64,000 nucleotides of DNA from a bacterium (GCA_016789445.1 JAEUQT010000001.1:1308-65307); one strand, 5' to 3'. Positions 7,758-48,349 are shown, counted from the first letter of the stretch. Notes: generated from the sequence alone by a model not told the origin. Made by a program: numbers and translations.

Positions 7758-8456
7758 TTAATCCTTAACTATCTCCCGTATCGAGGTATTGCGATGGATT
7801 ATCTCGTCGTTGCGTATGGAACGGAAGAATTCATACTGGTTACGCGGATTGCGCCCGTACCATGTTAAAAATTCTGATTCTATCGATTTCCCCTTCAATT
7901 TCTCTCCCCACGTTTCAAGAAAGCGGCTATATTGCTCGAACGCGTGGTTCTCGAACATATAGTTGAGCTCATACGACCATTTCGGATTCAGTAGGTAGAG
8001 GATGTAGGACCACCAGAAGTAGAAAAACGCGAAAAGCATCGGGATGAGGGTGTGGAGGATATACCCTGCCTTCTCGCCCTCTTTCCGTGCGATATGTGAG
8101 ATGACGACGACATGCATCGTTTCATTGTCCTGCGCGATACGTGCGTACTTAGCGATATTCGAAAGCTTCATCGCTTTCTGTTCGTCGGTATAGGTGGCGG
8201 TAAGCATAGTGAAGGCCGCCGACGCCCACGAATGATATGGGACGCGTGCAATCACCTCGACGGCGCGGAATTTGAGATACGACGGTTCGTGTCCGTAGAA
8301 CGTGTTACCGAGGATCACAAGCCACTTACCGAGAAGTTTCGGCAGGAACGCGGGTTTATAGTCGTCGTAGGGTCGCTTGTATTCCGCCAACTGATCGGGA
8401 TCATTCAGCTGCTGATTCAATGCCTCGAGATCGGTATCACCTCTTTGGAGCTCCAT
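7758..8456 (-). CDS. Alternative oxidase/plastoquinol terminal oxidase-like di-iron carboxylate protein
   Basis: Four helix motifs in AOX order: AVEVIARVP, DNETMHVVV (E-x-x-H), MFENHAFEQY (E..H) and RNDEIIHRN (D-E-x-x-H). Length 232 aa. Confidence 0.65.
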   Translation of the reverse strand: MELQRGDTDLEALNQQLNDPDQLAEYKRPYDDYKPAFLPKLLGKWLVILGNTFYGHEPSYLKFRAVEVIARVPYHSWASAAFTMLTATYTDEQKAMKLSNIAKYARIAQDNETMHVVVISHIARKEGEKAGYILHTLIPMLFAFFYFWWSYILYLLNPKWSYELNYMFENHAFEQYSRFLETWGEKLKGKSIESEFLTWYGRNPRNQYEFFRSIRNDEIIHRNTSIREIVKD

Positions 8457-8617
8457 GGTTGGGATTGTATACGCTTATGAAGAAACGTTCTAGACGCCGA
8501 TTTCTAATTCACCTGGGTTCGAATCCCTTTCGGGTACGAACCCCTCCGGGAATAGAACTAGCTGAATAGTGGCTTAAAACCATGCATCAGCATACCTCCG
8601 ATACTTTTTGCTTTGAG

Positions 8618-8688
8618 CGGGCCCACTAGGAATCGAACCTAGGCTAACGGTTTTGGAGACCGATGTACTACCATTATACGATGGACCC
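8618..8688 (-). tRNA. tRNA-Trp (anticodon CCA)
   Basis: Reverse complement reads GGGTCCA-TC-GTATAATGGTAGTAC-A-TCGGTCTCCAAAACCGT-TAGCC-TAGGTTCGATTCCTA-GTGGGCCC-G, with anticodon loop cuCCAaa. Confidence 0.8.
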
Positions 8689-8828
8689 TAACGAGGATCG
8701 GAAGAGAAAGCTTGCTTTCTCTTTCTCCGAGTGACGGGTTCATACGATCCTCTAGTATGGACCCTTCGGGACTGAGTATAGAACCTGGAATGCTAAGCGC
8801 CAATACGCACCACGTGCACCACTAGCAG

Positions 8829-8910
8829 ACTTTGGAAACCCTCGGTTTTCCAACGCTCGCTTCTCGCTGCCTTCCGACACGGGGAACTCCCGTTCCCCGA
8901 CCCCCTCCCG
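8829..8910 (-). repeat. Type-B structured repeat (copy B1) between rpmG and tRNA-Trp
   Basis: Reverse complement reads GGAGGGGGTCGGGGAACgggaGTTCCCC-GTGTCGGAAGGCAGCGAGAAGCGAGCG-TTGGAAAACCGAGGGTTTCCAAAG. It is paralogous to 16126-16273, 55682-55803 and 61916-62003. Confidence 0.75.
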
Positions 8911-8951
8911 CTGCAAATGGTGAGTGCACCATTCGAGCAAGCGGCAAGATA

Positions 8952-9110
8952 TTACTTTTTGACTTCCTTGTGTGGTGTAGATTTCTTACACCATTTGCAG
9001 AACTTCTTGAGCTCGATCTTCTTGGTGACGAGCTTCTTGTTCTTGCGCGTCCAATAGTTCGTCCGCTTGCAGACGGAGCACTGGAGCTTGATGAGTTGGT
9101 CCTGCGACAT
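8952..9110 (-). CDS. rpmG: 50S ribosomal protein L33 (zinc-ribbon form)
   Basis: 52-aa ORF, below the ORF-track cutoff: MSQDQLIKLQCSVCKRTNYWTRKNKKLVTKKIELKKFCKWCKKSTPHKEVKK, a CxxC...CxxC L33 signature. Confidence 0.8.
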   Translation of the reverse strand: MSQDQLIKLQCSVCKRTNYWTRKNKKLVTKKIELKKFCKWCKKSTPHKEVKK

Positions 9111-9280
9111 ATGTGGGCCGAAATATACCCTATATAGCGAAAGTGCGCAACTCGAAGAAAGCCAGAAAAGGGCTCAGATGCTAGGCGCTGGACAAGGGGC
9201 AGCTGAGACGTACCGAGCGTACGGTGAGGCTGAGCCGATGGCCAGCAACAACGCAGATGGGCCCTTTTCGGGCTTTCAGG

Positions 9281-9715
9281 CTAGAGGCCCAGATTGGTGC
9301 AGATATTGTTCCAAACAACATTATCCTTCAGGAGGCTGCTCATGAGGGTATCCACCACCAGCCACGCCACCATGATGACGATGAGGCCGATGGCCACGTT
9401 CCCGAAGAGCTTTTTAGCCTTATCCTTCTGGCCGATGGCCTCGTTGGAGAGGTACAACCAGCCGGCATACGCGAAAAGGAGCGCCGCGAGGAATACCGAG
9501 AGGAAGATGCCACCGTTGATGAGATTCTGCGCCAACTGGATGAGATGCTCGCATTTACAGTCCAAGCCATTGCACGGGACGATTTTGTCCGGCAAACCAC
9601 CGCCTCCCTGCTGCGCAAACGCGAAGTACGGCAGAAGGGCCACTACGGCCGGAATGAACGCGAAGATGCGCTGAAGCAACATGGCGTAAGTGTAGCATCG
9701 CCACTCTCTCCCCAT
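9281..9715 (-). CDS. TrbC/VirB2-like pilin-family small membrane protein (paralog 6, isolated)
   Basis: Signal-peptide-like N-terminus (LLQRIFAFIPAVVALLPYFAFAQQ), two hydrophobic helices and a Cys-rich loop CNGLDCKCEHL. Its architecture matches the tandem paralogs at 20580-22355. The overlapping + strand ORF 9224-9883 is taken as spurious. Confidence 0.6.
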   Translation of the reverse strand: MGREWRCYTYAMLLQRIFAFIPAVVALLPYFAFAQQGGGGLPDKIVPCNGLDCKCEHLIQLAQNLINGGIFLSVFLAALLFAYAGWLYLSNEAIGQKDKAKKLFGNVAIGLIVIMVAWLVVDTLMSSLLKDNVVWNNICTNLGL

Positions 9716-9821
9716 TCCTCTTTTGGGGAAAAGATTCGCCTTGCGACGAACGAAATACCATTTGACGAATACATAATTAATTATATAATGTTTTCAGTTT
9801 CAATCGTGAAAGGACTTGTTC

Positions 9822-10208
9822 ATGCAGGATCTGTTTACGGAAAGACCGAAATCGGCTTCGGCGTTCAAGCAGCCGCTTCTTGAAGTGACCGTCAAAGGAG
9901 ACGGCGTGAAGAAAGCCGCAGGAGCCGCCGAATCAAGCGTATGGTTCATTGATGTTGATGGTCAGATCGACCAGTTCATCAGCAAGAACAACACGCCGAA
10001 AAAACCGTTCATCGAACTATGCAAGAAACTCGCGCGGTCCGGCGTCGTCGTTACGGGGTTCCAGCCCTACAAGGGCAGCGGCGGCCCGAACTTCCTTCTG
10101 CGCAACGGTGAGCTCTTCCATCGTTTGAGCGATCTCGGCACACGTTCCGATACGATTCTCTCGTACGAGTATCGGGTCCCGGTCTACCGCGGCCCGCCGA
10201 AATCCTGA
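9822..10208 (+). CDS. Hypothetical protein
   Basis: TATAAT at 9783-9788, GAAAGGA RBS, ATG 9822, and a terminator follows. Confidence 0.5.
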   Translation: MQDLFTERPKSASAFKQPLLEVTVKGDGVKKAAGAAESSVWFIDVDGQIDQFISKNNTPKKPFIELCKKLARSGVVVTGFQPYKGSGGPNFLLRNGELFHRLSDLGTRSDTILSYEYRVPVYRGPPKS

Positions 10209-18243: not shown

Positions 18244-18316
18244 GGCCACGTGGTGAAGGGGTAACACGGGAGTCTGCAAAACTCTTACTGCGCGGGTTCG
18301 AGTCCCGCCGTGGCCT
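18244..18316 (+). tRNA. tRNA-Cys (anticodon GCA)
   Basis: Acceptor GGCCACG/CGTGGCC, anticodon loop CTGCAAA, T-arm GCGGGTTCGAGTCCCGC, discriminator U73 typical of tRNA-Cys. Confidence 0.85.
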
Positions 18317-18372
18317 CCGTTTTTGCAAAACCGCTACTGGATGGGTGAGACGGGGTTGGGGCCCCGTCGCAA

Positions 18373-18436
18373 GGCCGGAGACGCTCGGCGTCGAGGCGGG
18401 GTCGCGGAAATTTTCAGCAGAAAATTATCCGTGACC
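18373..18436 (+). repeat. Type-A structured repeat (minimal module)
   Basis: GGCCGGAGacgcTCGGcgtCGAGGCGGGGTCGCGGAAATTTTCagcaGAAAATTATCCGTGACC. Confidence 0.75.
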
Positions 18437-18503
18437 AACTCCACCGCCTCCCCAACCATACAATTGACTAATCCTCATCCTCATTGCAGGATTCCCCTAT
18501 CCT

Positions 18504-18935
18504 ATGAAAAAAGGCTTCACCGCGGGCGCATTCGACCTCTGCCATGCAGGTCATTTCCTCATGTTTGAGGAGGCAAAATCCCAGTGCGATTACCTCATCG
18601 TCGGCCTCCATACCGACCCGACACTCGACCGACCGGACACCAAGAACAAGCCGATCATGTCGGTCGAGGAGCGCATGATCATCCTCAAGGGCATCAAGTA
18701 CATCGACGAGGTCGTCACCTACGAGACCGAGGCGGATCTCTACAATATCCTCAAGGAGAACAAACTCGGCATCAATATCCGCATCCTCGGTGTCGAATAC
18801 AAGGACAAACCGTACACCGGTCGCGACCTCCCTCTTGAGGTCTACTACAACACCCGCGGCCATAACTTCTCGACGACTGAATTACGCAACCGCGTGTACG
18901 AGGCAGAGAAGGCAAAGCGCGAGAAGGCGGCCTAG
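18504..18935 (+). CDS. Cytidylyltransferase-family protein (glycerol-3-phosphate cytidylyltransferase TagD-like)
   Basis: FDLCHAGH nucleotidyltransferase motif. 143 aa and collinear with TagD. Confidence 0.8.
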   Translation: MKKGFTAGAFDLCHAGHFLMFEEAKSQCDYLIVGLHTDPTLDRPDTKNKPIMSVEERMIILKGIKYIDEVVTYETEADLYNILKENKLGINIRILGVEYKDKPYTGRDLPLEVYYNTRGHNFSTTELRNRVYEAEKAKREKAA

Positions 18936-18956
18936 TCCGTGATATAAATCTCGTAC

Positions 18957-19037
18957 GCCGGGGTGGCGGAATGGTTTACGCAGACGACTTAAAATCGTTC
19001 ACCGAAAGGTTTGTGGGTTCGAGTCCCACCCCCGGCA
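18957..19037 (+). tRNA. tRNA-Leu (anticodon TAA)
   Basis: Acceptor GCCGGGG/CCCCGGC, D-arm GCGGAATGGTTTACGC, anticodon loop CTTAAAA, long variable arm, T-arm GTGGGTTCGAGTCCCAC. Confidence 0.85.
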
Positions 19038-19040
19038 CAG

Positions 19041-19196
19041 ATTGAGCAGAGCGAAGCTGTGTCGGGGAGAACAGTGCCGACGCACTGTTCGGGTGGGACT
19101 CGAAAGGCGGAGCGATGTTTCGTCAGCAGACGAAACCGCGAGCCGGGGTCGCGAAAAAGTCTGCACGACGGTGCAGACTTTATTCGTGACCGAGCC
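19041..19196 (+). repeat. Type-A composite structured repeat, immediately downstream of tRNA-Leu(TAA)
   Basis: GATTGAGCA...GTGTCGGGGAGAACAGTGCcgacGCACTGTTcggg-GACTCGAAAGGCGGAGCGATGTTTCGTCagcagACGAAACCGCGAGCCGGGGTCGCGAAAAAGTCTGCACgacgGTGCAGACTTTATTCGTGACCGAGCC. Confidence 0.8.
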
Positions 19197-19683
19197 AAAC
19201 GGAATCAAAACGAGCTCTTTGCCGAGTCCTTCTCCCGGCAGCGAAAATTGTTTACACAAGATTCTTGAATCGCTCTTTCAGGAGTCGATATCTACGAATC
19301 GTATCGGGTTGCGAAAGAACACGCCCACTGTCTCTCTCTTCTCCTTCAAGTTGTTGAAACGTGAGGTCTGAATATTGGTCCTTTGTAAAATCAATCTGCG
19401 TTCCGTCTGCGAGAGCGTTCCAGTAATGTGAGCGCAAATGCGCATATTTAGATATATGTGCCAGTGAACCGCACATCAACTTACCACCCAAGTATTCCTG
19501 CGCTAAAACAGAAGCAACTGCACAATGTCCCCACAATGGATTGTGTTCTGTCCAATGTTTCGGATCTGCAGATGTGTCGCGCTGCGCGACATTTCTCAGT
19601 ATTCGTGAGAATGTGTCTCGATCGACTGTCATATCTAGCACTAATTAGCTTGATAATATCATTCCTTATCTTCACGGATATTT
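19197..19683. other. Low-GC islet between tRNA-Leu(TAA) and tRNA-Lys, flanked by type-A repeats
   Basis: GC visibly about 45% versus about 60% for flanking DNA. One hypothetical gene (19252-19641). Confidence 0.5.
19252..19641 (-). CDS. Hypothetical protein in a lower-GC islet between tRNA-Leu(TAA) and tRNA-Lys
   Basis: 129-aa ORF. The local GC (~45%) is clearly below the window average. Confidence 0.5.
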   Translation of the reverse strand: MLDMTVDRDTFSRILRNVAQRDTSADPKHWTEHNPLWGHCAVASVLAQEYLGGKLMCGSLAHISKYAHLRSHYWNALADGTQIDFTKDQYSDLTFQQLEGEERDSGRVLSQPDTIRRYRLLKERFKNLV

Positions 19684-19890
19684 CTTGCCCGACGGTGCAA
19701 TAAATTCCGCGACCCCGACTCGCCGCTCCGGCAGCTGCCGGAACATCGCTGCGGCTCGGACGAGTCCTCAAAGATAATGTTCTCGCCGTCGCTCGAAAAT
19801 TTCCCCGAGCCTGGCTCGCGGTTTTGCGTGCTCGCAAAACATCGCTCCGCCTCGGACAAAAGCACAAAACCTCCCACAGGGGAGGTTGTT
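19684..19890 (-). repeat. Tandem type-A structured repeat modules immediately downstream of tRNA-Lys
   Basis: Reverse complement reads CAAAAGACACAACAACCTCCCctgtGGGAGGTTTTGTGCTTTTG-TCCGAGGCGGAGCGATGTTTTGCGagcacGCAAAACCGCGAGCC...ATTATC...GAGCCGCAGCGATGTTCCGGCagctGCCGGAG...GTCGGGGTCGCGGAATTTATTGCACC. Confidence 0.75.
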
Positions 19891-19963
19891 GTGTCTTTTG
19901 TCCGCCCAGTAGGGATCGAACCTACGACCTGCCGATTAAGAGTCGGATGCTCTACCAGCTGAG
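19891..19963 (-). tRNA. tRNA-Lys (anticodon CTT)
   Basis: Reverse complement reads CCGCCTA-TA-GCTCAGCTGGTAGAGC-A-TCCGACTCTTAATCGGC-AGGTC-GTAGGTTCGATCCCTAC-TGGGCGG-A, with anticodon loop cuCTTaa and a C1:G72 first pair. Confidence 0.8.
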
Positions 19964-20065
19964 CTATAGGCGGATTGCCGATAATATACCATGTCTCATC
20001 AAATTGTCAGCTCTATAACAAAGAAACCAGGACCGAAAGGTCCTGGTTAGTAGATAGGGAGATGA

Positions 20066-20338
20066 TTAGTGGCCGCCGCGATCGTCCCGATCTTCGTCGT
20101 AATCTTCGAAGTCGCGATAATCAACCTGGACGATCTCGAATAGCTCGAACGCCTTCACGCCCGCTGCCGGCTTCGTCAGTCCCATCGCAAGAAACTTGTC
20201 TTGAGTCTCCTTGATGGCAGCGACGACGTCGCTGGCGAGCTTGATGCGTTGGGCGATAGTGAAATCCTCGATTTTCGGCTTATCATCACCGCGGAACGAG
20301 ACTTCGTCTTTTCCACGACGGGATTCGTGTCGGCCCAT
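20066..20338 (-). CDS. Hypothetical protein with acidic C-terminus
   Basis: GGAGG RBS 6 nt before ATG 20338, 90 aa. Confidence 0.45.
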   Translation of the reverse strand: MGRHESRRGKDEVSFRGDDKPKIEDFTIAQRIKLASDVVAAIKETQDKFLAMGLTKPAAGVKAFELFEIVQVDYRDFEDYDEDRDDRGGH

Positions 20339-20443
20339 GTATACCTCCAAGAACATCCATCAGCCTTTCTGATGGGATTATAATTATATCATATATATTT
20401 TGAATTGCAAGTCCCCAGACTCTCGTGCTATAGTCCCCCTGTC

Positions 20444-20525
20444 GGGCAGGTGGCGAAATTGGTAGACGTACCGCGCTTAGGACGCGGCGCCGCAAGGCAT
20501 GGAGGTTCGAGTCCTCTCCTGCCCA
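20444..20525 (+). tRNA. tRNA-Leu (anticodon TAG)
   Basis: Acceptor GGGCAGG/CCTGCCC, D-arm GCGAAATTGGTAGACG, anticodon loop CTTAGGA, long variable arm, T-arm GGAGGTTCGAGTCCTCT. TATAGT -10 at 20429-20434. Confidence 0.85.
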
Positions 20526-20528
20526 CAT

Positions 20529-20561
20529 AAAACCAAAACCGGAGCGTGCTCCGGTTTTGTT
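20529..20561 (+). terminator. Rho-independent terminator after tRNA-Leu(TAG)
   Basis: AAAACCGGAGCGTGCTCCGGTTTTGTT. Confidence 0.8.
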
Positions 20562-20579: not shown

Positions 20580-20882
20580 TTAGAACGGACTCGCCGGCAG
20601 GGAGTTCTGCACACGGCTCACATCGGTGGATGCGACATCCAAGCCGAAGGAGTTCACGATGAGCGCGATGATGCCGTAGACGGAAACCATGATGAGCATG
20701 CCGAGGAGGCCGTACACCATATGGTCCTTCCCCTTCTGTGAGGCTTCTCCGTTTTTCACGCCCCACAAAAACTCGACGATTCCCCAGATGAAGAGGAAGA
20801 GGCCGAGGGTGAATATGACGCGAAGACCAGGATCGATCACGTTCGTGATGATCCGCTGTAGGATCTCTTCGCCGGCTTGCAT
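20580..20882 (-). CDS. TrbC/VirB2-like pilin-family small membrane protein (tandem paralog 5)
   Basis: Two hydrophobic helices, RVIFTLGLFLFIWGIV and VYGLLGMLIMVSVYGIIALIV, flanking a charged loop. Last gene of the tandem array. Confidence 0.6.
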   Translation of the reverse strand: MQAGEEILQRIITNVIDPGLRVIFTLGLFLFIWGIVEFLWGVKNGEASQKGKDHMVYGLLGMLIMVSVYGIIALIVNSFGLDVASTDVSRVQNSLPASPF

Positions 20883-20899
20883 ACACGCTTACGCTGATG

Positions 20900-21265
20900 C
20901 TACTGCATCATGCGCGTATCGATCTGGATCGTCTTCGGGATGACCGGATCGGTCGAAGTAACGCGGAAGGTCGACTGGAGGAGACGGATGATGCCCCAGA
21001 TGGAGACCATGACGAAGATCGTGATGACACCCATCATCATGACCTTGAGACCTTCGGTCTTGCCTTCAGCACCGTCGTTGAGAAGGTACTTGATGAGACC
21101 GTAGAAGAAGACCACGATCGCGAGCGTGATGAAAAGATAGACCAGCGAGTTGAGGAACTGCGAGACCATCGCGAGCGTGTTGAGAAGCGTCTGCGCCGAT
21201 GCGAGCATCGGGAGAAAGAGCGATCCTGCCGAGAGTGCTGAAACTACTGATAGTCTGGTACGCAT
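20900..21265 (-). CDS. TrbC/VirB2-like pilin-family small membrane protein (tandem paralog 4)
   Basis: Signal peptide MRTRLSVVSALSAGSLFLPMLASAQ, two TM helices and a C-terminal motif shared with paralog 5 (TSTDPV / STDVS). Confidence 0.65.
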   Translation of the reverse strand: MRTRLSVVSALSAGSLFLPMLASAQTLLNTLAMVSQFLNSLVYLFITLAIVVFFYGLIKYLLNDGAEGKTEGLKVMMMGVITIFVMVSIWGIIRLLQSTFRVTSTDPVIPKTIQIDTRMMQ

Positions 21266-21349
21266 ACTGAATCGCTAAAAGGTTAACCCGTCTAAGTGCA
21301 TCAATCGTACCGCGCCCTCGGGGCGGAGCAATCAACCCCGTGTGGATAT

Positions 21350-21625
21350 CTACTTCTCCAGCCAGTACAAAGCCGCGGTCGCGAAGACGACGACCATGAG
21401 GATCGTCATCCCTTTTTCCATGATCTTGATGCCGTCTTCGCGGCGCTCGGTGCCGAGACGCGTGATGTACATGATGAACCCCGTGAAAAAGACACCGAGC
21501 GCGACCGCACCGAAGAATCCGATTGCCGCATAGAGACCGAACTCAACCGTGACTGATTGTGATACGGCCTCTTGTGCCGCGAGCGGGAGTGGCACGAGCA
21601 GAAACGGTAGGATGCGACGCCACAT
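21350..21625 (-). CDS. TrbC/VirB2-like pilin-family small membrane protein (tandem paralog 3)
   Basis: Signal peptide MWRRILPFLLVPLPLAAQEA plus two TM helices. Confidence 0.65.
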   Translation of the reverse strand: MWRRILPFLLVPLPLAAQEAVSQSVTVEFGLYAAIGFFGAVALGVFFTGFIMYITRLGTERREDGIKIMEKGMTILMVVVFATAALYWLEK

Positions 21626-21628
21626 ACA

Positions 21629-22000
21629 TCAATTGAGACATTCCGCCGCGATACAATCGAATTCCTGCGGACCTCCGCCGCCGAAATCCCCGCCGCCACC
21701 GCCACCGCCGAAGAGCGAATTACGTACGAGACCGACGATCCCCCACACGGAAACCATGACGAAGAGCGCGATGAGTCCCCACACGATGCGGCGGCTTAAT
21801 TCTTCAGAGCCGCCCTTGCTTAAGGAGACAAGTCCGGTCGCGACGCCATAGAAGTAGACGACGAGACCGAGGATGATCGCCGTACCGATGCCGGCATTGA
21901 GGAACTGCACGACGGTCTCCGCGAGCTCGGAGAACGTACGCGGTGCGGCTGCGGCCACCGCCGGTAGTGCGAGTATCGCGACAAGGAGAGCAAGGCGCAT
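21629..22000 (-). CDS. TrbC/VirB2-like pilin-family small membrane protein (tandem paralog 2) with Gly-rich tail
   Basis: Signal peptide MRLALLVAILALPAVAAAAP, two TM helices and a GGGGGGDFGGGGPQEFDC tail. Confidence 0.65.
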   Translation of the reverse strand: MRLALLVAILALPAVAAAAPRTFSELAETVVQFLNAGIGTAIILGLVVYFYGVATGLVSLSKGGSEELSRRIVWGLIALFVMVSVWGIVGLVRNSLFGGGGGGGDFGGGGPQEFDCIAAECLN

Positions 22001-22001
22001 A

Positions 22002-22355
22002 TCAGCCGAGGAGCTGGCGGATCGTACCGCCGATCATCGTCGCAAGGACCCACGCGCTGAGGATGAGGATCGCGCCCATGATGACGTAGGTGATATTGCG
22101 CTTCGCGTCGTTGAGTCCTTCCGGATTTCCGCGCGCCGCGATGAACTTGAAGCCGGCGTAGACGATAAAGACGGTGATCAAAGGAAGGGCGATGATGACG
22201 ATAGCGCGCAAAAATCCTTCCACGAATTTCTCGACGGATGAGAACTTGAGCGGATTCTCGAGACCGCCTTGCACGCCCTGCGCGAAAACCGGCAATGCCG
22301 CCGCCCACAGGAGGATGGCGAGTGTCGTCAGGCGTGCGAGATATCGATGCGTCAT
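22002..22355 (-). CDS. TrbC/VirB2-like pilin-family small membrane protein (tandem paralog 1)
   Basis: Signal peptide ...LAILLWAAALPVFAQ, TM1 AIVIIALPLITVFIVYAGF, loop RGNPEGLNDAKRN, TM2 ITYVIMGAILILSAWVLATMIG. Confidence 0.7.
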   Translation of the reverse strand: MTHRYLARLTTLAILLWAAALPVFAQGVQGGLENPLKFSSVEKFVEGFLRAIVIIALPLITVFIVYAGFKFIAARGNPEGLNDAKRNITYVIMGAILILSAWVLATMIGGTIRQLLG

Positions 22356-22357
22356 AT

Positions 22358-23662
22358 CTATTGCGTGGTCAGCGTCCTCATCGCCTGTTCGGCACGCTGC
22401 ACCGCTTCTAGCGTACGCGCCGCACCCGAGGTGACGCTTTCAATCATATCCTTGAAGATGCGTTCTGTCTCTTGGGGATTCGGGTCTTCCCAGGTACGCA
22501 CCAGGAGCGCCATCTTATTGAAGACCGCATCGTTCCCCTGCGCCGGCTCGGCAAGCACGTCGCGACGCGCCGATGCCAGACCGAATGCGAGCGAGAGGAG
22601 CTTGGATCCTTCCGGCCCCGCAAGGATGTACGCTGCCGTGAGCGCGCCCTGAGGATTCTGCGATGCACGTGGGATCGCGAACGCATACGCGTACCCCGCA
22701 TCCACGGTACGCTCGGCACCTTTCACCTGCGGCACGCTCGTCGCGATCGCGAAGTTGAGATTCGGATTAAGGCGGCGGATGAGCGGCTCTTCGCTCGCCG
22801 GTCCGAGATAGATCGCCAGATCCCCCTGCGCAAACGCAGTGCGCGCTTCCGGCATGGAACGATTCCAGCTGTAATCCGGACTGGATGGATTCGAGAACTG
22901 CGTAAAGAAGCGCAGCGCACTGTCCCCCGGCTGCGAAGTCTCATTCACGCGCGCCGTGAGAGATGGCATGAGCGTACCCGCGCTATCCCTTCCGGTGATC
23001 CTGCCTCCTGCCTGCATGATGAGCATGCTGAGGATCGCTTTCGCGTGGTTCACGTTGGCGTATTCACCGAACGCGATCGCGCTCTTGGTGATCGAACCCG
23101 CATCGCTCTTACGCGTCGCGGTACGCGTGAGGTCGTACACCTCATCCCAATACACCGGCGGCTTCGCGATGCCTGCGGTCGAGAGCATGTCGCGATTCCA
23201 ATAGAGGACGAACGGGTCCACGGCAAACGGGATACCGAGGGATCCTTCAGCGCCCAAGAACGGATCCGCCGCTTCAGCCCAGAGGTTGCGGAAGGTATCG
23301 CGCGGAAGCTGTTCGTACGGTATCGGGAAGATCTTCGCCCCTTCGGTGATGGTTTCGTCTTGGCGGAGGATGAACAGATCAGGCCCCGTACCGGATGCGA
23401 GCGCATTCGCGAGCTCGGCGCGGAACGTCGTCGGATCTTTCTGCACGTAGCTCACTTGTCGCAAACGGCTTTCGGTTTCAACCATCTGACGGATGACCGT
23501 CGAGAATGCGCTCTCATCGAACGTTCCCCACACCACGACCGGCCCTGTCGACGAACTCGAATTCGTACCGATGAAGAACGAGAAGATGAGCACGCTCGCC
23601 ACCGCGAAGGTGCCGAATACCGCGAGGAGCACCATCTGGAATGTCGACATGCCGGGCTTCAT
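22358..23662 (-). CDS. Membrane-anchored extracytoplasmic protein, possibly solute-binding-protein-like
   Basis: N-terminal TM or signal anchor followed by a 400-aa soluble domain. Its stop is 3 nt before the first pilin-like gene, so it is probably the first gene of that operon. Family assignment is uncertain. Confidence 0.55.
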   Translation of the reverse strand: MKPGMSTFQMVLLAVFGTFAVASVLIFSFFIGTNSSSSTGPVVVWGTFDESAFSTVIRQMVETESRLRQVSYVQKDPTTFRAELANALASGTGPDLFILRQDETITEGAKIFPIPYEQLPRDTFRNLWAEAADPFLGAEGSLGIPFAVDPFVLYWNRDMLSTAGIAKPPVYWDEVYDLTRTATRKSDAGSITKSAIAFGEYANVNHAKAILSMLIMQAGGRITGRDSAGTLMPSLTARVNETSQPGDSALRFFTQFSNPSSPDYSWNRSMPEARTAFAQGDLAIYLGPASEEPLIRRLNPNLNFAIATSVPQVKGAERTVDAGYAYAFAIPRASQNPQGALTAAYILAGPEGSKLLSLAFGLASARRDVLAEPAQGNDAVFNKMALLVRTWEDPNPQETERIFKDMIESVTSGAARTLEAVQRAEQAMRTLTTQ

Positions 23663-23689
23663 ACGGATATGGTACTACGCGCGAGCGTG

Positions 23690-24259
23690 TTATTGGGAAG
23701 TTTTCCGGAAGATAAGCCCGTAATGATGCGCGCCGGCATTGAATTCACGCACGAAGGTGAGTCCTGCCTTTCGTGCATGCTCGTATGCCTGCTCTTTGGT
23801 GACCACATGATCTTCCGTCGGTCCCATGCCGCGGAACGATTCCGACCAATCGATGATGATGACTCTTCCCCCATGCTTCAGCGTTCGCTCCGCCTCGATA
23901 AGGACGCCCGTCTTGTCGCGTACCTGGAACAGGAGATTCGAGACAAGGACGATATCCAACACGCTGCCGAGTTTCGAACCGCCGTCTTCCTCGACATCCC
24001 CCCAGATGACATCGACATTTGTGTGGCCATGCTTCACGGCATCATTCTTGATGCGTCGCAGGAGATCCTTCTGGATATCGATCGCATAGACCGTACCGCT
24101 TCCGAGAAGCTCCTTGGCGATGAGATTCACATACGCGCCGGAACCGGCGCCGAAGTCGGCAACCTTCATGCCCGGCTCGATACCGAACGCGCTCACCGTG
24201 CGCGCGGGATGCGCGAAACGACGCTTCTCATGCGTAGAACCTCCCTGGTGAGGGTACAT
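23690..24259 (-). CDS. Class I SAM-dependent methyltransferase
   Basis: Motif I VADFGAGSGAY, motif II AIDIQ, small Rossmann MTase. Confidence 0.75.
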   Translation of the reverse strand: MYPHQGGSTHEKRRFAHPARTVSAFGIEPGMKVADFGAGSGAYVNLIAKELLGSGTVYAIDIQKDLLRRIKNDAVKHGHTNVDVIWGDVEEDGGSKLGSVLDIVLVSNLLFQVRDKTGVLIEAERTLKHGGRVIIIDWSESFRGMGPTEDHVVTKEQAYEHARKAGLTFVREFNAGAHHYGLIFRKTSQ

Positions 24260-24361
24260 TGGAATCAGTATATATGCTTTTCTGCGCGCACCGGATCACG
24301 TAGGTGTAAAACTAAAACCGCGACGCACTGCGTCGCGGTTTGGATAGAAACGGAATTTTCG

Positions 24362-30145: not shown

Positions 30146-31867
30146 TTAATTTGCCACTCCAGGAGAAGGAGTTTCGTCGTCGATCCAATCAGCTGCCGTT
30201 CCTGTATCAACAGTAAGATTTGAACGCACGAGCGAATGTCCCGGCAATACATCTACCGCTCCATTGCCTGAAACGAACCCATCGGTATTTGCTCCCCATG
30301 AGAGGGAGTCGACCGTAGTTGTCGCTGCATCCCGCAAGAAGAGCGATTCGCTGGAATTGTTAAGGCCGCTACCGAGCGCACTCTCGAAGGCAACAACCTG
30401 CGTACCGCCAGGAATATTCCAGAAACTACTGAAGGTTGTCGATGCGTTCGTTAGAAGAATGAATCCGCCTGCAGCAATCGTCGTTCCTGCTGGGATACGA
30501 TCGAAATTCGTCGTTGCATCCTTAATCGTCCAATTAGAGAGATCGACTATTGAATTCGTCGGATTATACAGCTCGATCCATTCGTTAGCCGTATCTGCTC
30601 CATGTGATACATCAGGCTGGTCATACACTTCACTAATAATGATGTGATCAAGACTTGGCTCCGGCTCAGCTTCCGGCACGAAATTCACCGTCACACTGTC
30701 CGTCGATGTGCCCGCTTCATTGCTGCACTCAAGTGAGTACGTAGTTGTCGCGTTCGGTTCGACGATCTGATTTCCATTTAATGCCTTTGCGCCACTCCAA
30801 CCTCCGGTTGCAAGACATTGATCCGCATCAGTCGTCGTCCATGTAAGAGTGGAAGTCGCGCTACCTGCACCCGGCGTCACACTGGTCGGGTTCGCGCTGA
30901 TGGAAACATCCGGAGCGTCCTGCGCTTCGTTCACGGTAACCGTCACCGAATCCTGTGCCGTTCCACCGGGTCCGGTGCATTCGATCGCATAGGTTGTCGT
31001 TACCGTCGGCGAGACATCCGCCGTGCCATCAAGGTCCTTCGAGCCGCTCCATCCATTCGACGCCGTGCAGCTCGTCGCATTCTCCGAGTTCCACGTAAGT
31101 TCCGAGGAACCGCCTTCGGTGATGGTCGTCGGATCAGCACTGATATCCACGCTCACGCTCGGTTGCGCGACGACATTCACCGTCACACTCTCGGTCGACG
31201 TGCTGACGCCATTACCGCATGCAAGCGTGTACGTCGTTGTCGCATTCACCGTCACGACCTGGGAACCATCAAGCGATTTCGTACCGCTCCAACCATTCGA
31301 TGCAACACACGCCGTCGCATTCGTTGAATCCCAGCTCAGCGTGGAAGTACCACCCGCGGTTACGTTCGTCGGATTCGCATCGAAATCGAGAGTCGGTGTC
31401 GGAAGCGGTTCTTCCTCATCAACGGAAACCGTTACCGACTTAGATACGCTTCCTCCTGCGCCTGAGCAGTTGAGCGTATATGTCGTATCTTCGTCCGGCG
31501 AAACACTCTGAGAGCCCGACGTATTCTTGCCACCACTCCATCCGCCCGATGCGGTACAGCTGGTCGCATTCGTCGTACTCCACGAGAGCGTCGAGCTCTC
31601 TCCCTCGCCTATTTCAGCAGGGTTCGCCGTAAAGGTAAGTGTCGGTTTCGGTGTCGGATTCGGCGCATCCTCGCAGAGCGATGGATTGATAAGCGCGCGG
31701 GCAAGACGGCCCGCAAGACGATCCTGACGATCGCACAATCGCTTCTTCACCTGATCAGTGAGCGATGCCGCATCCGCTGCACCCGGCAGCATGAATGCGA
31801 ACGAAGCGATAAGAAGGAGAACACTGATAATCTGACCTGACCGCAGTACGTGCCCGTTATTCCCCAT
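30146..31867 (-). CDS. Secreted protein with five tandem ~90-aa Ig-like repeats and a C-terminal lamin-tail-domain-like module
   Basis: Signal peptide. Repeats of the form L(T/S)F(T/D)ANP..(G/E)G.S.L.W.(S/T)(T/E)NAT.C(T/V)ASGGWSG.K...GSQ.V.P...TTY.L.C.G.GG. C-terminus IISEVYDQP...NEWIELYNPT...DLSNWTI...LRD resembles the LTD signature. Confidence 0.75.
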   Translation of the reverse strand: MGNNGHVLRSGQIISVLLLIASFAFMLPGAADAASLTDQVKKRLCDRQDRLAGRLARALINPSLCEDAPNPTPKPTLTFTANPAEIGEGESSTLSWSTTNATSCTASGGWSGGKNTSGSQSVSPDEDTTYTLNCSGAGGSVSKSVTVSVDEEEPLPTPTLDFDANPTNVTAGGTSTLSWDSTNATACVASNGWSGTKSLDGSQVVTVNATTTYTLACGNGVSTSTESVTVNVVAQPSVSVDISADPTTITEGGSSELTWNSENATSCTASNGWSGSKDLDGTADVSPTVTTTYAIECTGPGGTAQDSVTVTVNEAQDAPDVSISANPTSVTPGAGSATSTLTWTTTDADQCLATGGWSGAKALNGNQIVEPNATTTYSLECSNEAGTSTDSVTVNFVPEAEPEPSLDHIIISEVYDQPDVSHGADTANEWIELYNPTNSIVDLSNWTIKDATTNFDRIPAGTTIAAGGFILLTNASTTFSSFWNIPGGTQVVAFESALGSGLNNSSESLFLRDAATTTVDSLSWGANTDGFVSGNGAVDVLPGHSLVRSNLTVDTGTAADWIDDETPSPGVAN

Positions 31868-42788: not shown

Positions 42789-43541
42789 ATGTCAACGACA
42801 TCGACCACTCTCTTCCTTACGGCCCTCGTCACCGGCGCCGGTTCCCTCTGCCTCGATGCGAACAAGCAGGTGGTCTACAACGGCGCGTCAGACAGCTGCC
42901 TCTCCTCGACGCGCGACACGAAGGAGGAAATCAATCCCCTCGTGACCGAAGCTCTCGAGCAGGTCCTCGCGCTCAACCCGGTCTCCTTCAGATACAAGCA
43001 TGGCGACGGCCGCACCCGATACGGCTTCATCGCCGAAGACGCGGCCGACGTGGACGCTCATCTCGCCACCTATGATGCCCAATTGAATATCTCCGGCATC
43101 GACGACCGCGCCATCCTCGCCATCCTCGTCGGCGCCATCCAGGACCTCGCCCGTAAACTCGCGGACCTGGCGGAACACCTCGTCACGAAGGAACTGGCAT
43201 TCCAGCGCGCCGTCGGCGAAAGCCTGACGCTCACGCGCGAACTCTGCATCGCCGAGGGCGCGAACGACGCTTCCCCGCTCTGCCTTACCAAATCCCAGCT
43301 CAACGCCCTGCTAAACCAGATCGGCGCCGCCGTGCTCCCCTCATCCGTGCCGCCTCCAGCGGCTAATGACGACGTCCCGGACCTCCCCGATGCTTCGGCA
43401 TCGCCCGACGATAATGGGACACCCCAACAGCAACAAGAGCCAGCGTACGAGAACCCGGAGCCGGGCTTGGGGACTGAAGCACTCGGTCCTAGCCCTGCGG
43501 ATGCCGAACCTGCACCCGCGATGGAAACCACGGGCAGCTAA
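42789..43541 (+). CDS. Protein with a tail-fibre/endosialidase intramolecular-chaperone (peptidase S74-like) domain
   Basis: N-terminal hydrophobic segment, then LNPVSFRYKHGDGRTRYGFIAEDAADVDAH...AILAILVGAIQDLARKLADL, which matches the C-terminal chaperone domain of phage tail fibres. Pro/Asp-rich tail. Confidence 0.55.
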   Translation: MSTTSTTLFLTALVTGAGSLCLDANKQVVYNGASDSCLSSTRDTKEEINPLVTEALEQVLALNPVSFRYKHGDGRTRYGFIAEDAADVDAHLATYDAQLNISGIDDRAILAILVGAIQDLARKLADLAEHLVTKELAFQRAVGESLTLTRELCIAEGANDASPLCLTKSQLNALLNQIGAAVLPSSVPPPAANDDVPDLPDASASPDDNGTPQQQQEPAYENPEPGLGTEALGPSPADAEPAPAMETTGS

Positions 43542-47467: not shown

Positions 47468-48349
47468 TTATGAACGCTCCTGTTGGATTTCACGCCGGTG
47501 TTCCAGCATTTCTTTAACTTTCTTTAGTATAACATTATCTCGCGGCGCGTCAAGTCTTCGATATGCCTCCTCTTCACTCCACGCTCGCGCGCAATATCCC
47601 ATATCGATGACATATGCCAAAGGTTCATCTCCATCGGGATTCGGATCAAGGTTCACCATGATATTCCCCTCCCGCAGATCCCGATGATAGAAACCGTTCG
47701 CGTGCATCAGATCGACGAAGCGCTGCACTTCCGCGAATATCGTATCGATATCAAGCCCCGCTGGAATCGGAATATCCTGATCGATGATATCTTTAACCGC
47801 GATACAGCTGGTGACTTCTTCCTGCGCGATCGTATCGATACCAAGCTTGCTTGCGAAGAAGAAGGGCCGCGGCACCGCGACACGGATCTCAGGATGATCG
47901 AGCGAAAGCCGGTGGACGTCGGCCTGAAAAGCGGCCTCCGACCTCAATGAATTATGCGGATGCATCGGCGGGTGGAGCAGGACCTTGTACACGACCGCCG
48001 GACGGGTCGGATCCTGTTGCAGACAACGGATGATACGCCCGTTCTGGCCACGATTGATCTCCTCTGAATGACGATCGATATCGCGCATACGTGCGATGAG
48101 CTCTCGCGGCAATTCCTTCGCGATGCGCAGATATTCTGAGTGGTGATCAGCGGGTTTTACCGCTTCAGCGCGTCGTTGGATTCCATTGCGCAGGATCGCC
48201 TTCTGCTCCTGCACCTCCTTGCCCGCGATCTTCTGCACCCAGGTGTCATGGTGCTCTTCGGGCAGCAGATCGAGCAGATCATCGACGGAATGTGTATCTT
48301 CAGCCGGGCTTTCAGGCTGCTGTACGCGACGCATCCGCTCAAGGGACAT
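47468..48349 (-). CDS. Protein-kinase-like (APH/Kdo kinase/RIO-type) fold protein
   Basis: Catalytic-loop-like GFYHRDLREGNIMVN and a metal-binding IDMGY (DxG) motif. Confidence 0.55.
   Translation of the reverse strand: MSLERMRRVQQPESPAEDTHSVDDLLDLLPEEHHDTWVQKIAGKEVQEQKAILRNGIQRRAEAVKPADHHSEYLRIAKELPRELIARMRDIDRHSEEINRGQNGRIIRCLQQDPTRPAVVYKVLLHPPMHPHNSLRSEAAFQADVHRLSLDHPEIRVAVPRPFFFASKLGIDTIAQEEVTSCIAVKDIIDQDIPIPAGLDIDTIFAEVQRFVDLMHANGFYHRDLREGNIMVNLDPNPDGDEPLAYVIDMGYCARAWSEEEAYRRLDAPRDNVILKKVKEMLEHRREIQQERS

What the first reader, a model, noticed from the sequence alone, without database searches (positions are those of the whole stretch)
20580..23662. Operon of a membrane-anchored extracytoplasmic protein followed by five tandem, divergent TrbC/VirB2-like pilin paralogs, with no secretion ATPase nearby
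Six co-directional genes have 2-85 nt spacers. The first is a 434-aa anchored exported protein; the next five are 91-123-aa proteins with a signal peptide, TM1, a short charged loop and TM2, the VirB2/TrbC pilin architecture. The pilins are highly divergent from each other, one has a Gly-rich tail, and the last lacks a signal peptide. A sixth paralog lies alone at 9281-9715. Arrays of such pilin-like genes are a hallmark of Patescibacteria, but their partner machinery and function, whether an episymbiotic attachment pilus, a competence pilus or a T4SS, remain unresolved. No VirB4, VirB6 or PilB-like gene is in this window, so these appear to be orphan pilins. The extracytoplasmic protein could be the pilus tip or adhesin, or a substrate-binding partner.
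Basis: partly seen in the sequence, partly recalled or inferred. Interest (0 to 1): 0.6.

Follow-up and report, generated by a model that had tools for sequence, protein, structure and literature searches.

The report
Sugar-binding protein operon with VirB2-like pilins
This is the Parcubacteria-type version of the already described array of small secretion-system pilin genes of ultrasmall candidate-phyla bacteria, but here it forms a fixed, anciently conserved operon with a membrane-anchored sugar-binding protein, a link I did not find in the literature I could search and which bears on how these bacteria might take nutrients from hosts.

Summary
On the minus strand lie a 434-aa anchored exported protein and five 91-123-aa proteins, each with two membrane helices. 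A sixth paralog sits at 9281-9715.

**What the parts are**
- The small proteins belong to Pfam T4SS_pilin/TrbC-VirB2. p1 passes both curated cut-offs; the other four are supported through their orthologues or profile comparison.
- The 434-aa protein is a MalE-like family-1 solute-binding protein (SBP) with an uncleaved membrane anchor.

**What is already known**
- Such pilin arrays are published for Patescibacteria: 441 arrays, and six essential pilins in Southlakia.
- They go with a type IV secretion system (T4SS) resembling that of single-membrane bacteria. Its VirB4 gene is often encoded far from the pilins.
- "Orphan pilins" is therefore not supported.

**What appears new**
- In 81 related loci, down to 38% SBP identity, the unit methyltransferase-SBP-pilins is never interrupted, and its stop and start codons often overlap.
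- The paralogs keep a fixed order. Each evolves about as slowly as the SBP.
- The lone paralog is a relocated array member, which gives a set of six.

This argues for a fixed six-subunit assembly rather than a variable repertoire. It also raises the possibility that the SBP is a working partner. That functional link is inferred, not shown.

The parts
24315..24341 (-). Terminator-like hairpin between gyrA and the methyltransferase gene; the probable upstream boundary of the operon
   Evidence: Stem of 12 pairs followed by a T-run. The gyrA-to-MT distance is variable in related loci: 16 of 41 exceed 500 bp.
23690..24259 (-). 189-aa cytoplasmic class I SAM-dependent methyltransferase, first gene of the unit; its role is unknown
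   Evidence: Pfam Methyltransf_31 2e-17. It sits directly upstream of the SBP gene in 56 loci (median gap 3 nt, never above 294 nt). A 4-nt overlap occurs in 21 of 57 loci.
22358..23662 (-). 434-aa family-1 extracellular solute-binding protein with an uncleaved N-terminal membrane anchor (MalE-like, oligosaccharide-binding type)
   Evidence: Pfam SBP_bac_1 4.5e-16. AlphaFold model pLDDT 73. Top Foldseek PDB matches are 5ci5, T. maritima MalE2 and TMBP, TM-score 0.68-0.76. The anchor has invariant F8 and F27 and near-invariant Q9 and F16 across 63 sequences.
22002..22355 (-). p1, 117-aa VirB2/TrbC-type pilin-like protein: signal peptide plus alpha-hairpin
   Evidence: T4SS_pilin 45.5 bits and TrbC 37.7 bits, both above cut-off. 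In loci where the lone-type paralog is not in the array, p1 directly follows the SBP gene. Model.
21629..22000 (-). p2, 123-aa paralog with a Gly-rich, Cys-containing tail
   Evidence: TrbC 7e-4 and T4SS_pilin 6e-3, both below cut-off. Orthologues at the same position in 36 loci.
21350..21625 (-). p3, 91-aa paralog and the weakest family member. It is truncated here: orthologues outside the window's close relatives have a third membrane helix and a Lys-rich tail
   Evidence: No pilin hit of its own. 9 of 19 orthologues hit T4SS_pilin, best 7.5e-5. The profile comparison with p1 is not significant. Alignment.
20900..21265 (-). p4, 121-aa paralog, the most conserved of the set. The 121-aa start restores a signal peptide that the 102-aa public gene call lacks
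   Evidence: T4SS_pilin 24.7 bits, just under the 26.6 cut-off. Orthologue identity is at or above that of the SBP. Preceded by the only long spacer, 84 nt.
20580..20882 (-). p5, 100-aa paralog without a signal peptide, always the last gene of the array
   Evidence: 43 of 50 orthologues hit T4SS_pilin, best 3.9e-12. hhalign against the p1 profile: 94.7%, E 5.6e-8. Alignment.
20534..20559 (-). Terminator-like hairpin 21 nt after the p5 stop codon; end of the operon
   Evidence: Stem of 11 pairs followed by a T-run.
9281..9715 (-). Lone sixth paralog, 144 aa, with a Cys-Cys motif before TM1. It is the orthologue of the member that sits between the SBP gene and p1 in more distant lineages
   Evidence: T4SS_pilin 6e-5. 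It is the best phmmer query for the first array gene in 9 distant loci, and the Cys motif is shared.

Best explanation
This is a vertically inherited, core-chromosomal operon of a Paceibacteria (Kaiserbacteria-like) Patescibacterium: methyltransferase, membrane-anchored MalE-like solute-binding protein (SBP), and five VirB2/TrbC-type pilin paralogs. It is this lineage's version of the 'pilin array' that belongs to the Patescibacterial T4SS, which resembles the T4SS of single-membrane bacteria.

**Shown**
- Family membership of the parts.
- The operon layout.
- A fixed gene order and position-specific orthology across 81 related loci.
- Each paralog diverges about as slowly as the SBP.

**Inferred mechanism**
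- The four paralogs with AxA signal peptides, and the lone one, are cut by signal peptidase I. All six insert as alpha-hairpins with the basic loop facing the cytoplasm.
- The five array paralogs and the relocated sixth are non-interchangeable subunits, comparable to major and minor pilins. A VirB4/VirB6 core encoded elsewhere, probably near dnaA, takes them from the membrane and assembles them into a mixed-subunit pilus or conduit.
- The SBP is made in step with p1. Its membrane helix has a conserved face. It therefore acts at the same envelope site, either capturing a host-derived oligosaccharide-like ligand or serving as the receptor-binding component.

My confidence is about 0.85 for the pilin-array part and about 0.45 for a direct working link between the SBP and the pilins.
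For: - **Family hits:** Pfam and NCBIfam results are.
- **p1 model:** it is a hairpin.
- **SBP fold:**
- **Fixed order:** MT-SBP-p1..p5 is kept in every locus long enough to show it, down to 38-40% SBP identity.
- **Unit never interrupted:** MT-to-SBP and SBP-to-pilin distances never exceed 500 bp (0 of 56 and 0 of 66). The gyrA-to-MT distance does so in 16 of 41 loci.
- **Overlapping codons:** 4-nt stop/start overlaps occur in 21 of 57 loci (MT/SBP) and 31 of 67 loci (SBP/pilin).
- **Terminators:** they bracket the unit.
- **Slow divergence:** median orthologue identities are p1 51, p4 59, p5 48 and SBP 53% in the same bin. Paralogs within the array are only 23-35% identical.
- **Distance correlations:** after controlling for gyrA distance, SBP-p1 is 0.58 and SBP-p4 0.54, against MT-p1 0.25.
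- **Conserved anchor:** the SBP anchor has a conserved face.
- **Literature:** six essential PF18895 pilins sit next to the VirB6-like gene in Southlakia (PMC10633639). Arrays and VirB4 are widespread, and VirB4 is often distant from the pilins (PMC12102498). A genome carrying this cassette is VirB4-positive.
Against: - No T4SS core gene lies in the 64-kb window or within about 10 kb of the cassette in the annotated relatives. The link to VirB4 rests on the literature and on one related genome.
- No Patescibacterial VirB2-like protein has been shown to form a filament. The filaments solved in Mycosynbacter are a different, Ig-fold system.
- The fold search with p1 gave no significant match to solved conjugative pilins. 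The PDB sequence profile search found nothing.
- p3 is only weakly tied to the family.
- The whole region is syntenic with housekeeping genes across this clade, so adjacency alone is weak evidence that the SBP and pilins work together.
- In Southlakia the array has no adjacent SBP.
- The distance-correlation test is not corrected for shared ancestry.
Confidence: 0.6

Rival explanations
1. The SBP is an ordinary substrate-binding protein of a sugar ABC importer whose permease and ATPase are encoded elsewhere. It sits beside the pilin array only because this clade's chromosome is highly syntenic. The pilins serve the T4SS independently.
For: The SBP has a full MalE-like fold and many conserved aromatic and polar residues typical of sugar binders. 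Macro-synteny with S1, gyrA, RbfA and IF2 is also conserved. The Southlakia array has no SBP.
Against: No ABC permease or ATPase lies in the window or within about 10 kb in four annotated contexts. Stop/start overlap between the SBP gene and the first pilin gene occurs in 31 of 67 loci and the pair is never interrupted, whereas the gyrA-MT distance often is. The overlap is kept even where a different paralog (the lone type) follows the SBP gene.
Confidence: 0.3
2. The array is a repertoire of interchangeable pilin variants used for antigenic variation or host-range switching. This is the reading suggested in the literature by analogy with Bartonella and Anaplasma.
For: The paralogs are only 23-35% identical to each other. 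The published survey proposes this reading.
Against: Each position has its own orthologue series and keeps its own features: p5 never has a signal peptide, the lone type has its Cys motif, and p3 has a third helix in most lineages. Divergence is about the same as for the SBP and the methyltransferase. There are no recent duplicates. Gene number and order are stable.
Confidence: 0.07
3. The SBP and the small two-helix proteins form a self-contained uptake device that does not depend on any T4SS ATPase. Ten to twelve membrane helices from five or six subunits would replace an ABC permease.
For: The operon contains an SBP but no permease. The SBP anchor has a conserved helix face. Some Kaiserbacteria assemblies are listed as VirB4-negative, but those genomes are incomplete.
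Against: p1 is a bona fide TrbC/VirB2 family member. Homologous arrays lie inside T4SS clusters and are essential there. No energising component is evident.
Confidence: 0.03

Closest known systems
Patescibacterial VirB2-like pilin arrays (Southlakia epibionticum SEML1_0014-0019; 441 arrays surveyed by Quinonero-Coronel et al. 2025)
   Same: Tandem PF18895/PF04956 genes of about 100-185 aa, with roughly 25% identity between paralogs. They are chromosomal, with no relaxase nearby. The total here is six paralogs (five plus the relocated one), the same number as in Southlakia.
   Different: Here the array is not in the T4SS cluster. It is co-transcribed with a membrane-anchored SBP and a methyltransferase downstream of gyrA. 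I show a fixed order and position-specific orthology, which the survey did not address. The survey found arrays mainly in Microgenomatia and Saccharimonadia; this one is in Paceibacteria.
VirB2/TrbC/TraA conjugative pilins of Gram-negative T4SSs (Agrobacterium T-pilus, RP4, F)
   Same: Signal peptide, two hydrophobic helices and a short basic loop. p1 matches the Pfam TrbC model above its cut-off.
   Different: Those systems have a single pilin gene next to virB3/virB4, a double-membrane envelope, and known processing by cyclisation or acetylation. Here there are six paralogs in a single-membrane organism, no adjacent machinery, and no shown filament.
Mycoplasma ICE 'Mbov_0395 family pilin-like conjugal transfer protein' (NCBIfam NF045849)
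   Same: A small two-helix protein of a T4SS from a single-membrane organism. p1 scores 31.9 bits, E 7.6e-8.
   Different: The score is below the family cut-off of 40 bits. That protein is a single gene on a mobile element, not a chromosomal paralog set.
Family-1 oligosaccharide SBPs of ABC importers (MalE, T. litoralis TMBP, Thermotoga MalE1-3)
   Same: Type II periplasmic-binding fold, with a Pfam SBP_bac_1 match and a TM-score of about 0.7.
   Different: Only 14-21% identity. It has a membrane anchor with conserved residues instead of a lipobox or a cleaved signal peptide. No permease or ATPase genes are nearby. It is followed by pilin genes.
PrgZ of plasmid pCF10 (from my own knowledge, not tested here)
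   Same: A substrate-binding protein encoded by a Gram-positive conjugation element that feeds a ligand to an importer encoded elsewhere.
   Different: PrgZ is a family-5 (OppA-like) peptide binder with a signalling role and is not homologous to this SBP.

Membership tests
Pfam T4SS_pilin (PF18895) / TrbC-VirB2 (PF04956) | Match to the family model above the curated cut-off | tested here: met
   p1 scores 45.5 bits (cut-off 26.6) and 37.7 bits (cut-off 27.9). p4 (24.7), p2 (17.1-20.2) and the lone paralog (23.4) fall below cut-off on their own. For p5, 43 of 50 orthologues hit the family and hhalign gives 94.7%. p3 is weak: 9 of 19 orthologues hit, and hhalign is not significant.
Pfam T4SS_pilin (PF18895) / TrbC-VirB2 (PF04956) | Signal peptide, two membrane helices and a short basic loop | tested here: met
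   Sequences, hydropathy and the AlphaFold hairpin. p5 lacks the signal peptide in all lineages.
Pfam T4SS_pilin (PF18895) / TrbC-VirB2 (PF04956) | Structural match to solved conjugative pilins | tested here: inconclusive
   Foldseek against the PDB gave no hit with E <= 0.001. The PDB sequence profile search gave 0 hits. A bare helical hairpin is not diagnostic.
Pfam T4SS_pilin (PF18895) / TrbC-VirB2 (PF04956) | Polymerises into an extracellular pilus in a VirB4/VirB6-dependent way | not testable with these tools
   Needs microscopy or proteomics. It has not been shown for any Patescibacterium in the papers I read.
Patescibacterial VirB2-like pilin array | Two or more tandem pilin-family genes with low identity between paralogs, in a Patescibacterial chromosome | tested here: met
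   Five tandem genes at 23-35% identity. SBP and p1 homologues are named Kaiserbacteria, Paceibacterota or Minisyncoccia. The definition is in PMC12102498.
Patescibacterial VirB2-like pilin array | Genome also encodes the VirB4-type T4SS core | tested here: inconclusive
   None in the 64-kb window. The rest of this genome is not available. A related genome that carries the cassette is VirB4-positive according to Table S1 of PMC12102498.
ABC-importer substrate-binding protein, family 1 | SBP_bac_1 model match and a two-lobed type II binding fold | tested here: met
   60.2 bits against a cut-off of 26. PDB profile hits to sugar SBPs. Foldseek TM-score 0.68-0.76.
ABC-importer substrate-binding protein, family 1 | Encoded with its cognate permease and ATPase genes | tested here: not met
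   No BPD_transp or ABC_tran gene appears in the window's scanned ORFs or within about 10 kb in L001, L002, L087 and L088. The 81 loci contain no conserved large ORF other than housekeeping genes. The genome-wide status is unknown.
Conjugative element (ICE or plasmid T4SS locus) | Relaxase, coupling protein, VirB4, integrase or mobile-element boundaries | tested here: not met
   None found. The locus sits in housekeeping synteny (S1, gyrA, RbfA, IF2, ClpB) that is conserved across the clade.
Type IV pilus / competence pilus pilins | Prepilin (class III) leader with a G|F..E motif, plus PilB/PilC/PilD genes | tested here: not met
   The leaders are of the AxA|Q signal-peptidase-I type. No PilB or PilC is in the window. 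The only related hit is a weak PilM_2 match on the FtsA gene.
Phage holins | Match to a holin or phage family, or a lysis-cassette context | tested here: not met
   PHROGs gave nothing except one weak hit to a family of unknown function for p5. The context is housekeeping.

The most novel reading that the evidence does not exclude
The T4SS of Paceibacteria is an SBP-assisted importer. A membrane-anchored oligosaccharide-binding protein docks, through the conserved face of its anchor helix, onto a conduit built from six distinct VirB2-like subunits. It hands captured host-derived glycans or other solutes to that conduit. This would be a substrate-binding-protein-dependent uptake route with no ABC permease. 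It would give a molecular handle on the published speculation that the Patescibacterial T4SS pilus serves uptake from the host.
Probability: 0.15. Interest if true: 0.85.

Novelty: new variant of a known kind. Interest (0 to 1): 0.45.

Why it matters
The Patescibacterial T4SS and its pilin array are essential for epibiotic growth in the one species that has been tested genetically. What they transport is unknown, and reviews speculate about uptake from the host.

This locus points to three things:
- In the large Paceibacteria class the array is a fixed set of six ancient, non-interchangeable paralogs. That favours a mixed-subunit machine over an antigenic repertoire.
- The array is co-transcribed, often with overlapping codons, with an oligosaccharide-type binding protein that has no transporter genes nearby.
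- This gives a concrete and testable candidate for the substrate-recognition step: find the SBP's ligand, and test whether the SBP contacts the pilins.

If the SBP turns out to be a mere neighbour, what remains is a well-characterised new example of a published gene array.

Tried and rejected
- **Fold search with the p1 model against the PDB** and **p1 profile against PDB sequences**: no significant hit. A helical hairpin is not diagnostic.
- **hhalign of the p3 profile against the p1 profile**: not significant. p3 is kept in the family only through the Pfam hits of its orthologues.
An alignment query would have reached further.
- **Finding VirB4 in the same genome:** not possible. Only the window and about 10 kb of flank around relatives are readable.
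- **Holin or phage reading:** rejected.
- **Type IV or competence pilus reading:** rejected because of the leader type and the absence of PilB/PilC.
- **Mobile conjugative element:** rejected because of the housekeeping synteny.
- **Recent-duplication or antigenic-variation reading:** rejected because of position-specific orthology.
- **Literature search for a link between an SBP and these arrays**: nothing found. The supplement of PMC12102498 is stored truncated.
- **The 2026 'Pam pilus' preprint**: it describes an unrelated Ig-fold system.
- **Distance-correlation test**: suggestive only, because it is not corrected for phylogeny.


Full report
**1. What is in the sequence**

The minus strand of 20580-24259 carries seven co-directional genes:
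- a 189-aa SAM methyltransferase (MT), 23690-24259
- a 434-aa protein, 22358-23662
- five small proteins: p1 22002-22355 (117 aa), p2 21629-22000 (123 aa), p3 21350-21625 (91 aa), p4 20900-21265 (121 aa) and p5 20580-20882 (100 aa)

The spacers are 27, 2, 1, 3, 84 and 17 nt. GC at the third codon position (0.67-0.79) matches the window's housekeeping genes. The longer overlapping ORFs in other frames do not match. Public assemblies of the identical locus call the same genes.

Terminator-like hairpins lie between gyrA and MT (24341-24315) and 21 nt after p5 (20559-20534). The unit is therefore MT-SBP-p1..p5.

p1-p4 have AxA-type signal peptides, then two hydrophobic helices joined by a short basic loop. 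p5 has the two helices but no signal peptide. p2 has a Gly-rich tail.

A sixth paralog lies at 9281-9715 on the minus strand, just upstream of rpmG and tRNA-Trp.

**2. What the parts are**

*p1.* It passes the curated cut-offs of both Pfam T4SS_pilin (45.5 bits) and TrbC/VirB2 (37.7 bits). p2, p4 and the lone paralog hit the same models below cut-off. p3 and p5 have no pilin hit of their own.

*Orthologue sets from related loci.*
- 43 of 50 p5 orthologues hit T4SS_pilin, best 3.9e-12.
- The p5 profile matches the p1 profile at 94.7% probability.
- 9 of 19 p3 orthologues hit T4SS_pilin, best 7.5e-5.
- The p3 profile does not match the p1 profile significantly, so p3 is the weakest member.

*Other family evidence.*
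- NCBIfam relates p1 to the Mycoplasma ICE 'pilin-like conjugal transfer protein' family, below its cut-off.
- PHROGs gives no holin or other phage function.
- The AlphaFold model of p1 (pLDDT 81) is a signal helix plus an alpha-hairpin. Foldseek finds nothing significant in the PDB. This is expected for a bare hairpin, so the fold evidence is neutral.

*The 434-aa protein.* It is a family-1 extracellular solute-binding protein:
- Pfam SBP_bac_1, 60 bits.
- Profile hits to sugar-binding SBPs in the PDB.
- An AlphaFold model (pLDDT 73) whose best structural matches are oligosaccharide binders (5ci5, Thermotoga MalE2, TMBP), with TM-scores of 0.68-0.76.
- An N-terminal single membrane helix with no lipobox and no cleavage site.

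**3. The organism and the window**

Homologues of the SBP and of p1 are named Kaiserbacteria, Paceibacterota, Parcubacteria or Minisyncoccia.

The window is housekeeping chromosome. It encodes RelA, ParB, ClpB, IF2, RbfA, GyrA, S1, FtsA, FtsZ, ValRS, LepA, MurJ and 13 tRNAs.

I scanned 40 further ORFs, including every non-overlapping ORF of 225 aa or more. None is VirB4, VirB6, VirD4, PilB or PilC.

**4. Related loci**

One complete chromosome from a metagenome-assembled genome (L006, 38% SBP identity) and 80 metagenome loci were compared with the window proteins.

*Order.* Every locus long enough to show it has MT-SBP-pilins on one strand downstream of gyrA. p1-type comes first and the signal-peptide-less p5-type comes last.

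*The lone paralog.* In nine of the most distant loci, the first gene after the SBP gene is instead most similar to the window's lone paralog. It shares that paralog's Cys-Cys motif. The lone gene is therefore a relocated array member, and the ancestral set is six. Southlakia also has six pilins.

*Divergence.* Orthologues of each paralog diverge at about the rate of the SBP and MT. In the 50-65% SBP-identity bin the medians are SBP 53, p1 51, p4 59, p5 48 and MT 59%. Paralogs within the array are 23-35% identical.

*Spacing.* MT-to-SBP and SBP-to-first-pilin distances never exceed 500 bp (0 of 56 and 0 of 66; medians 3 and -4 nt). The gyrA-to-MT distance exceeds 500 bp in 16 of 41 loci. ATGA-type 4-nt overlaps occur in 21 of 57 MT/SBP junctions and 31 of 67 SBP/pilin junctions.

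*Caveat.* The wider region (S1, gyrA, RbfA, IF2) is also syntenic across this clade. Adjacency alone is therefore weak evidence. The uninterrupted spacing and the overlapping codons carry the argument.

*Two further hints.*
- The SBP anchor helix has invariant F8 and F27 and near-invariant Q9 and F16. It is as conserved as the globular domain.
- Pairwise distances of the SBP co-vary with those of the pilins after removing gyrA distance (0.42-0.58). This is more than MT does with the pilins (0.16-0.35). The test is not corrected for phylogeny.

**5. What is already known**

- Wang et al. 2023 (PMC10633639) found six PF18895 pilins (SEML1_0014-0019) next to the VirB6-like gene of the Southlakia T4SS. 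All are essential, and there is no SBP beside them.
- Quinonero-Coronel et al. 2025 (PMC12102498) surveyed 3,035 genomes. They found:
  - VirB2-like pilins in 1,948 VirB4-positive assemblies, near virB4 in only 1,135 of them.
  - 441 arrays of 2-11 genes with a mean identity of 25%.
  - virB4 near dnaA/dnaN in Paceibacteria.
  - They proposed antigenic or host-range variation as the reason for the paralogs.
- A 2025 review (PMC12857230) speculates that the pilus is an uptake conduit.
- None of these papers mentions a solute-binding protein, gyrA or this operon.
- Parcubacteria Gr01-1014_8 carries the same cassette (L087). It has no T4SS core gene within 10 kb of the cassette, yet it is listed as VirB4-positive.

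**6. Interpretation**

The 'orphan pilin' reading is not supported. These are the pilin-like subunits of the Patescibacterial T4SS, encoded away from its ATPase core, which is common in this phylum.

The fixed order, the position-specific features and the slow divergence argue against an interchangeable variant repertoire. They favour six distinct subunits of one assembly.

The most likely mechanism has the following steps, all inferred:
1. Signal-peptidase-I processing of the paralogs that have a leader.
2. Insertion into the membrane as hairpins.
3. Extraction and polymerisation by the distant VirB4/VirB6 core.
4. The co-translated, membrane-anchored SBP acts at the same site, as a ligand-capturing or receptor-binding component.

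The main rival is that the SBP serves an unlinked ABC importer. I rate that rival at about 0.3.

**7. Verdict**

- The family assignment is right.
- The claim of novelty for the array itself is overtaken by the 2023-2025 literature.
- The conserved MT-SBP-six-pilin operon of Paceibacteria is a new variant, and it gives a testable lead on what this essential system handles.

Interest: 0.45.

Noticed in passing
window 8952-9110 (-), 8617-8688 (-): A 52-aa ribosomal protein L33 gene (rpmG, identified by reading the sequence) and tRNA-Trp lie directly downstream of the lone pilin paralog. The relocated pilin therefore sits in a housekeeping context.
   Followed up: partly
window 21350-21625 (-); L017, L019, L025 and other loci (alignment A4): p3 is truncated in the window and its close relatives. 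Orthologues elsewhere have a third membrane helix and a Gly/Lys-rich cytoplasmic tail, plus a conserved RLGTWP(S/T)(Y/H)R loop motif.
   Followed up: partly
window 23575-23662 (-) (SBP residues 1-30): The membrane anchor of the SBP has invariant F8 and F27 and near-invariant Q9 and F16 across 63 sequences, down to 38% overall identity. This is unusual for a simple anchor and suggests a specific helix-helix contact within the membrane.
   Followed up: partly
window p1, p3, p4, lone (22002-22355, 21350-21625, 20900-21265, 9281-9715): The predicted mature N-termini begin with Gln straight after the AxA site. A pyroglutamate or other N-terminal modification is possible. The co-transcribed methyltransferase has no assigned substrate.
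   Followed up: no
window 22002-22355 (-): p1 (and weakly p2 and the lone paralog) hits NCBIfam NF045849, the Mycoplasma ICE 'pilin-like conjugal transfer protein'. This suggests that VirB2-like proteins exist in T4SSs of single-membrane organisms, contrary to the statement that the MPF-FATA class lacks them.
   Followed up: no
window 7758-8456 (-): A 232-aa ORF has a Pfam alternative oxidase (AOX) match, E 2.6e-9. This is unexpected in a lineage said to lack a respiratory chain.
   Followed up: no
window 42789-43541 (+): A 250-aa protein carries a Peptidase_S74 domain (the intramolecular chaperone of endosialidase and tail fibres). It may be a surface fibre or a phage-derived gene.
   Followed up: no
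window 30146-31867 (-): A 573-aa protein (546 aa in public gene calls) has a Lamin Tail Domain. It is conserved in several related loci.
   Followed up: no
window 47468-48349 (-), 56421-57440 (-): A weak protein-kinase-domain ORF, below the Pfam cut-off, and a PGA_cap (CapA-like capsule synthesis) gene.
   Followed up: no
L006 8001-9297 (OY969557.1): In this complete MAG chromosome the SBP gene is split into two overlapping ORFs (8001-8264 and 8194-9297). The first pilin also looks split (9322-9597 and 9632-9895). These are either frameshift errors of the assembly or pseudogenes.
   Followed up: no
L031 2125-2835, L021 4238-5074, L075 3251-3868: Some related loci have pilin-family ORFs of 205-278 aa. 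They could be pilin-pilin fusions or long N-terminal extensions.
   Followed up: no
window 18244-20526: Four tRNA genes (Cys, Leu-taa, Lys, Leu-tag) are interspersed with small genes just downstream of the operon. tRNA-Leu(tag) lies on the opposite strand next to the operon's terminator.
   Followed up: no
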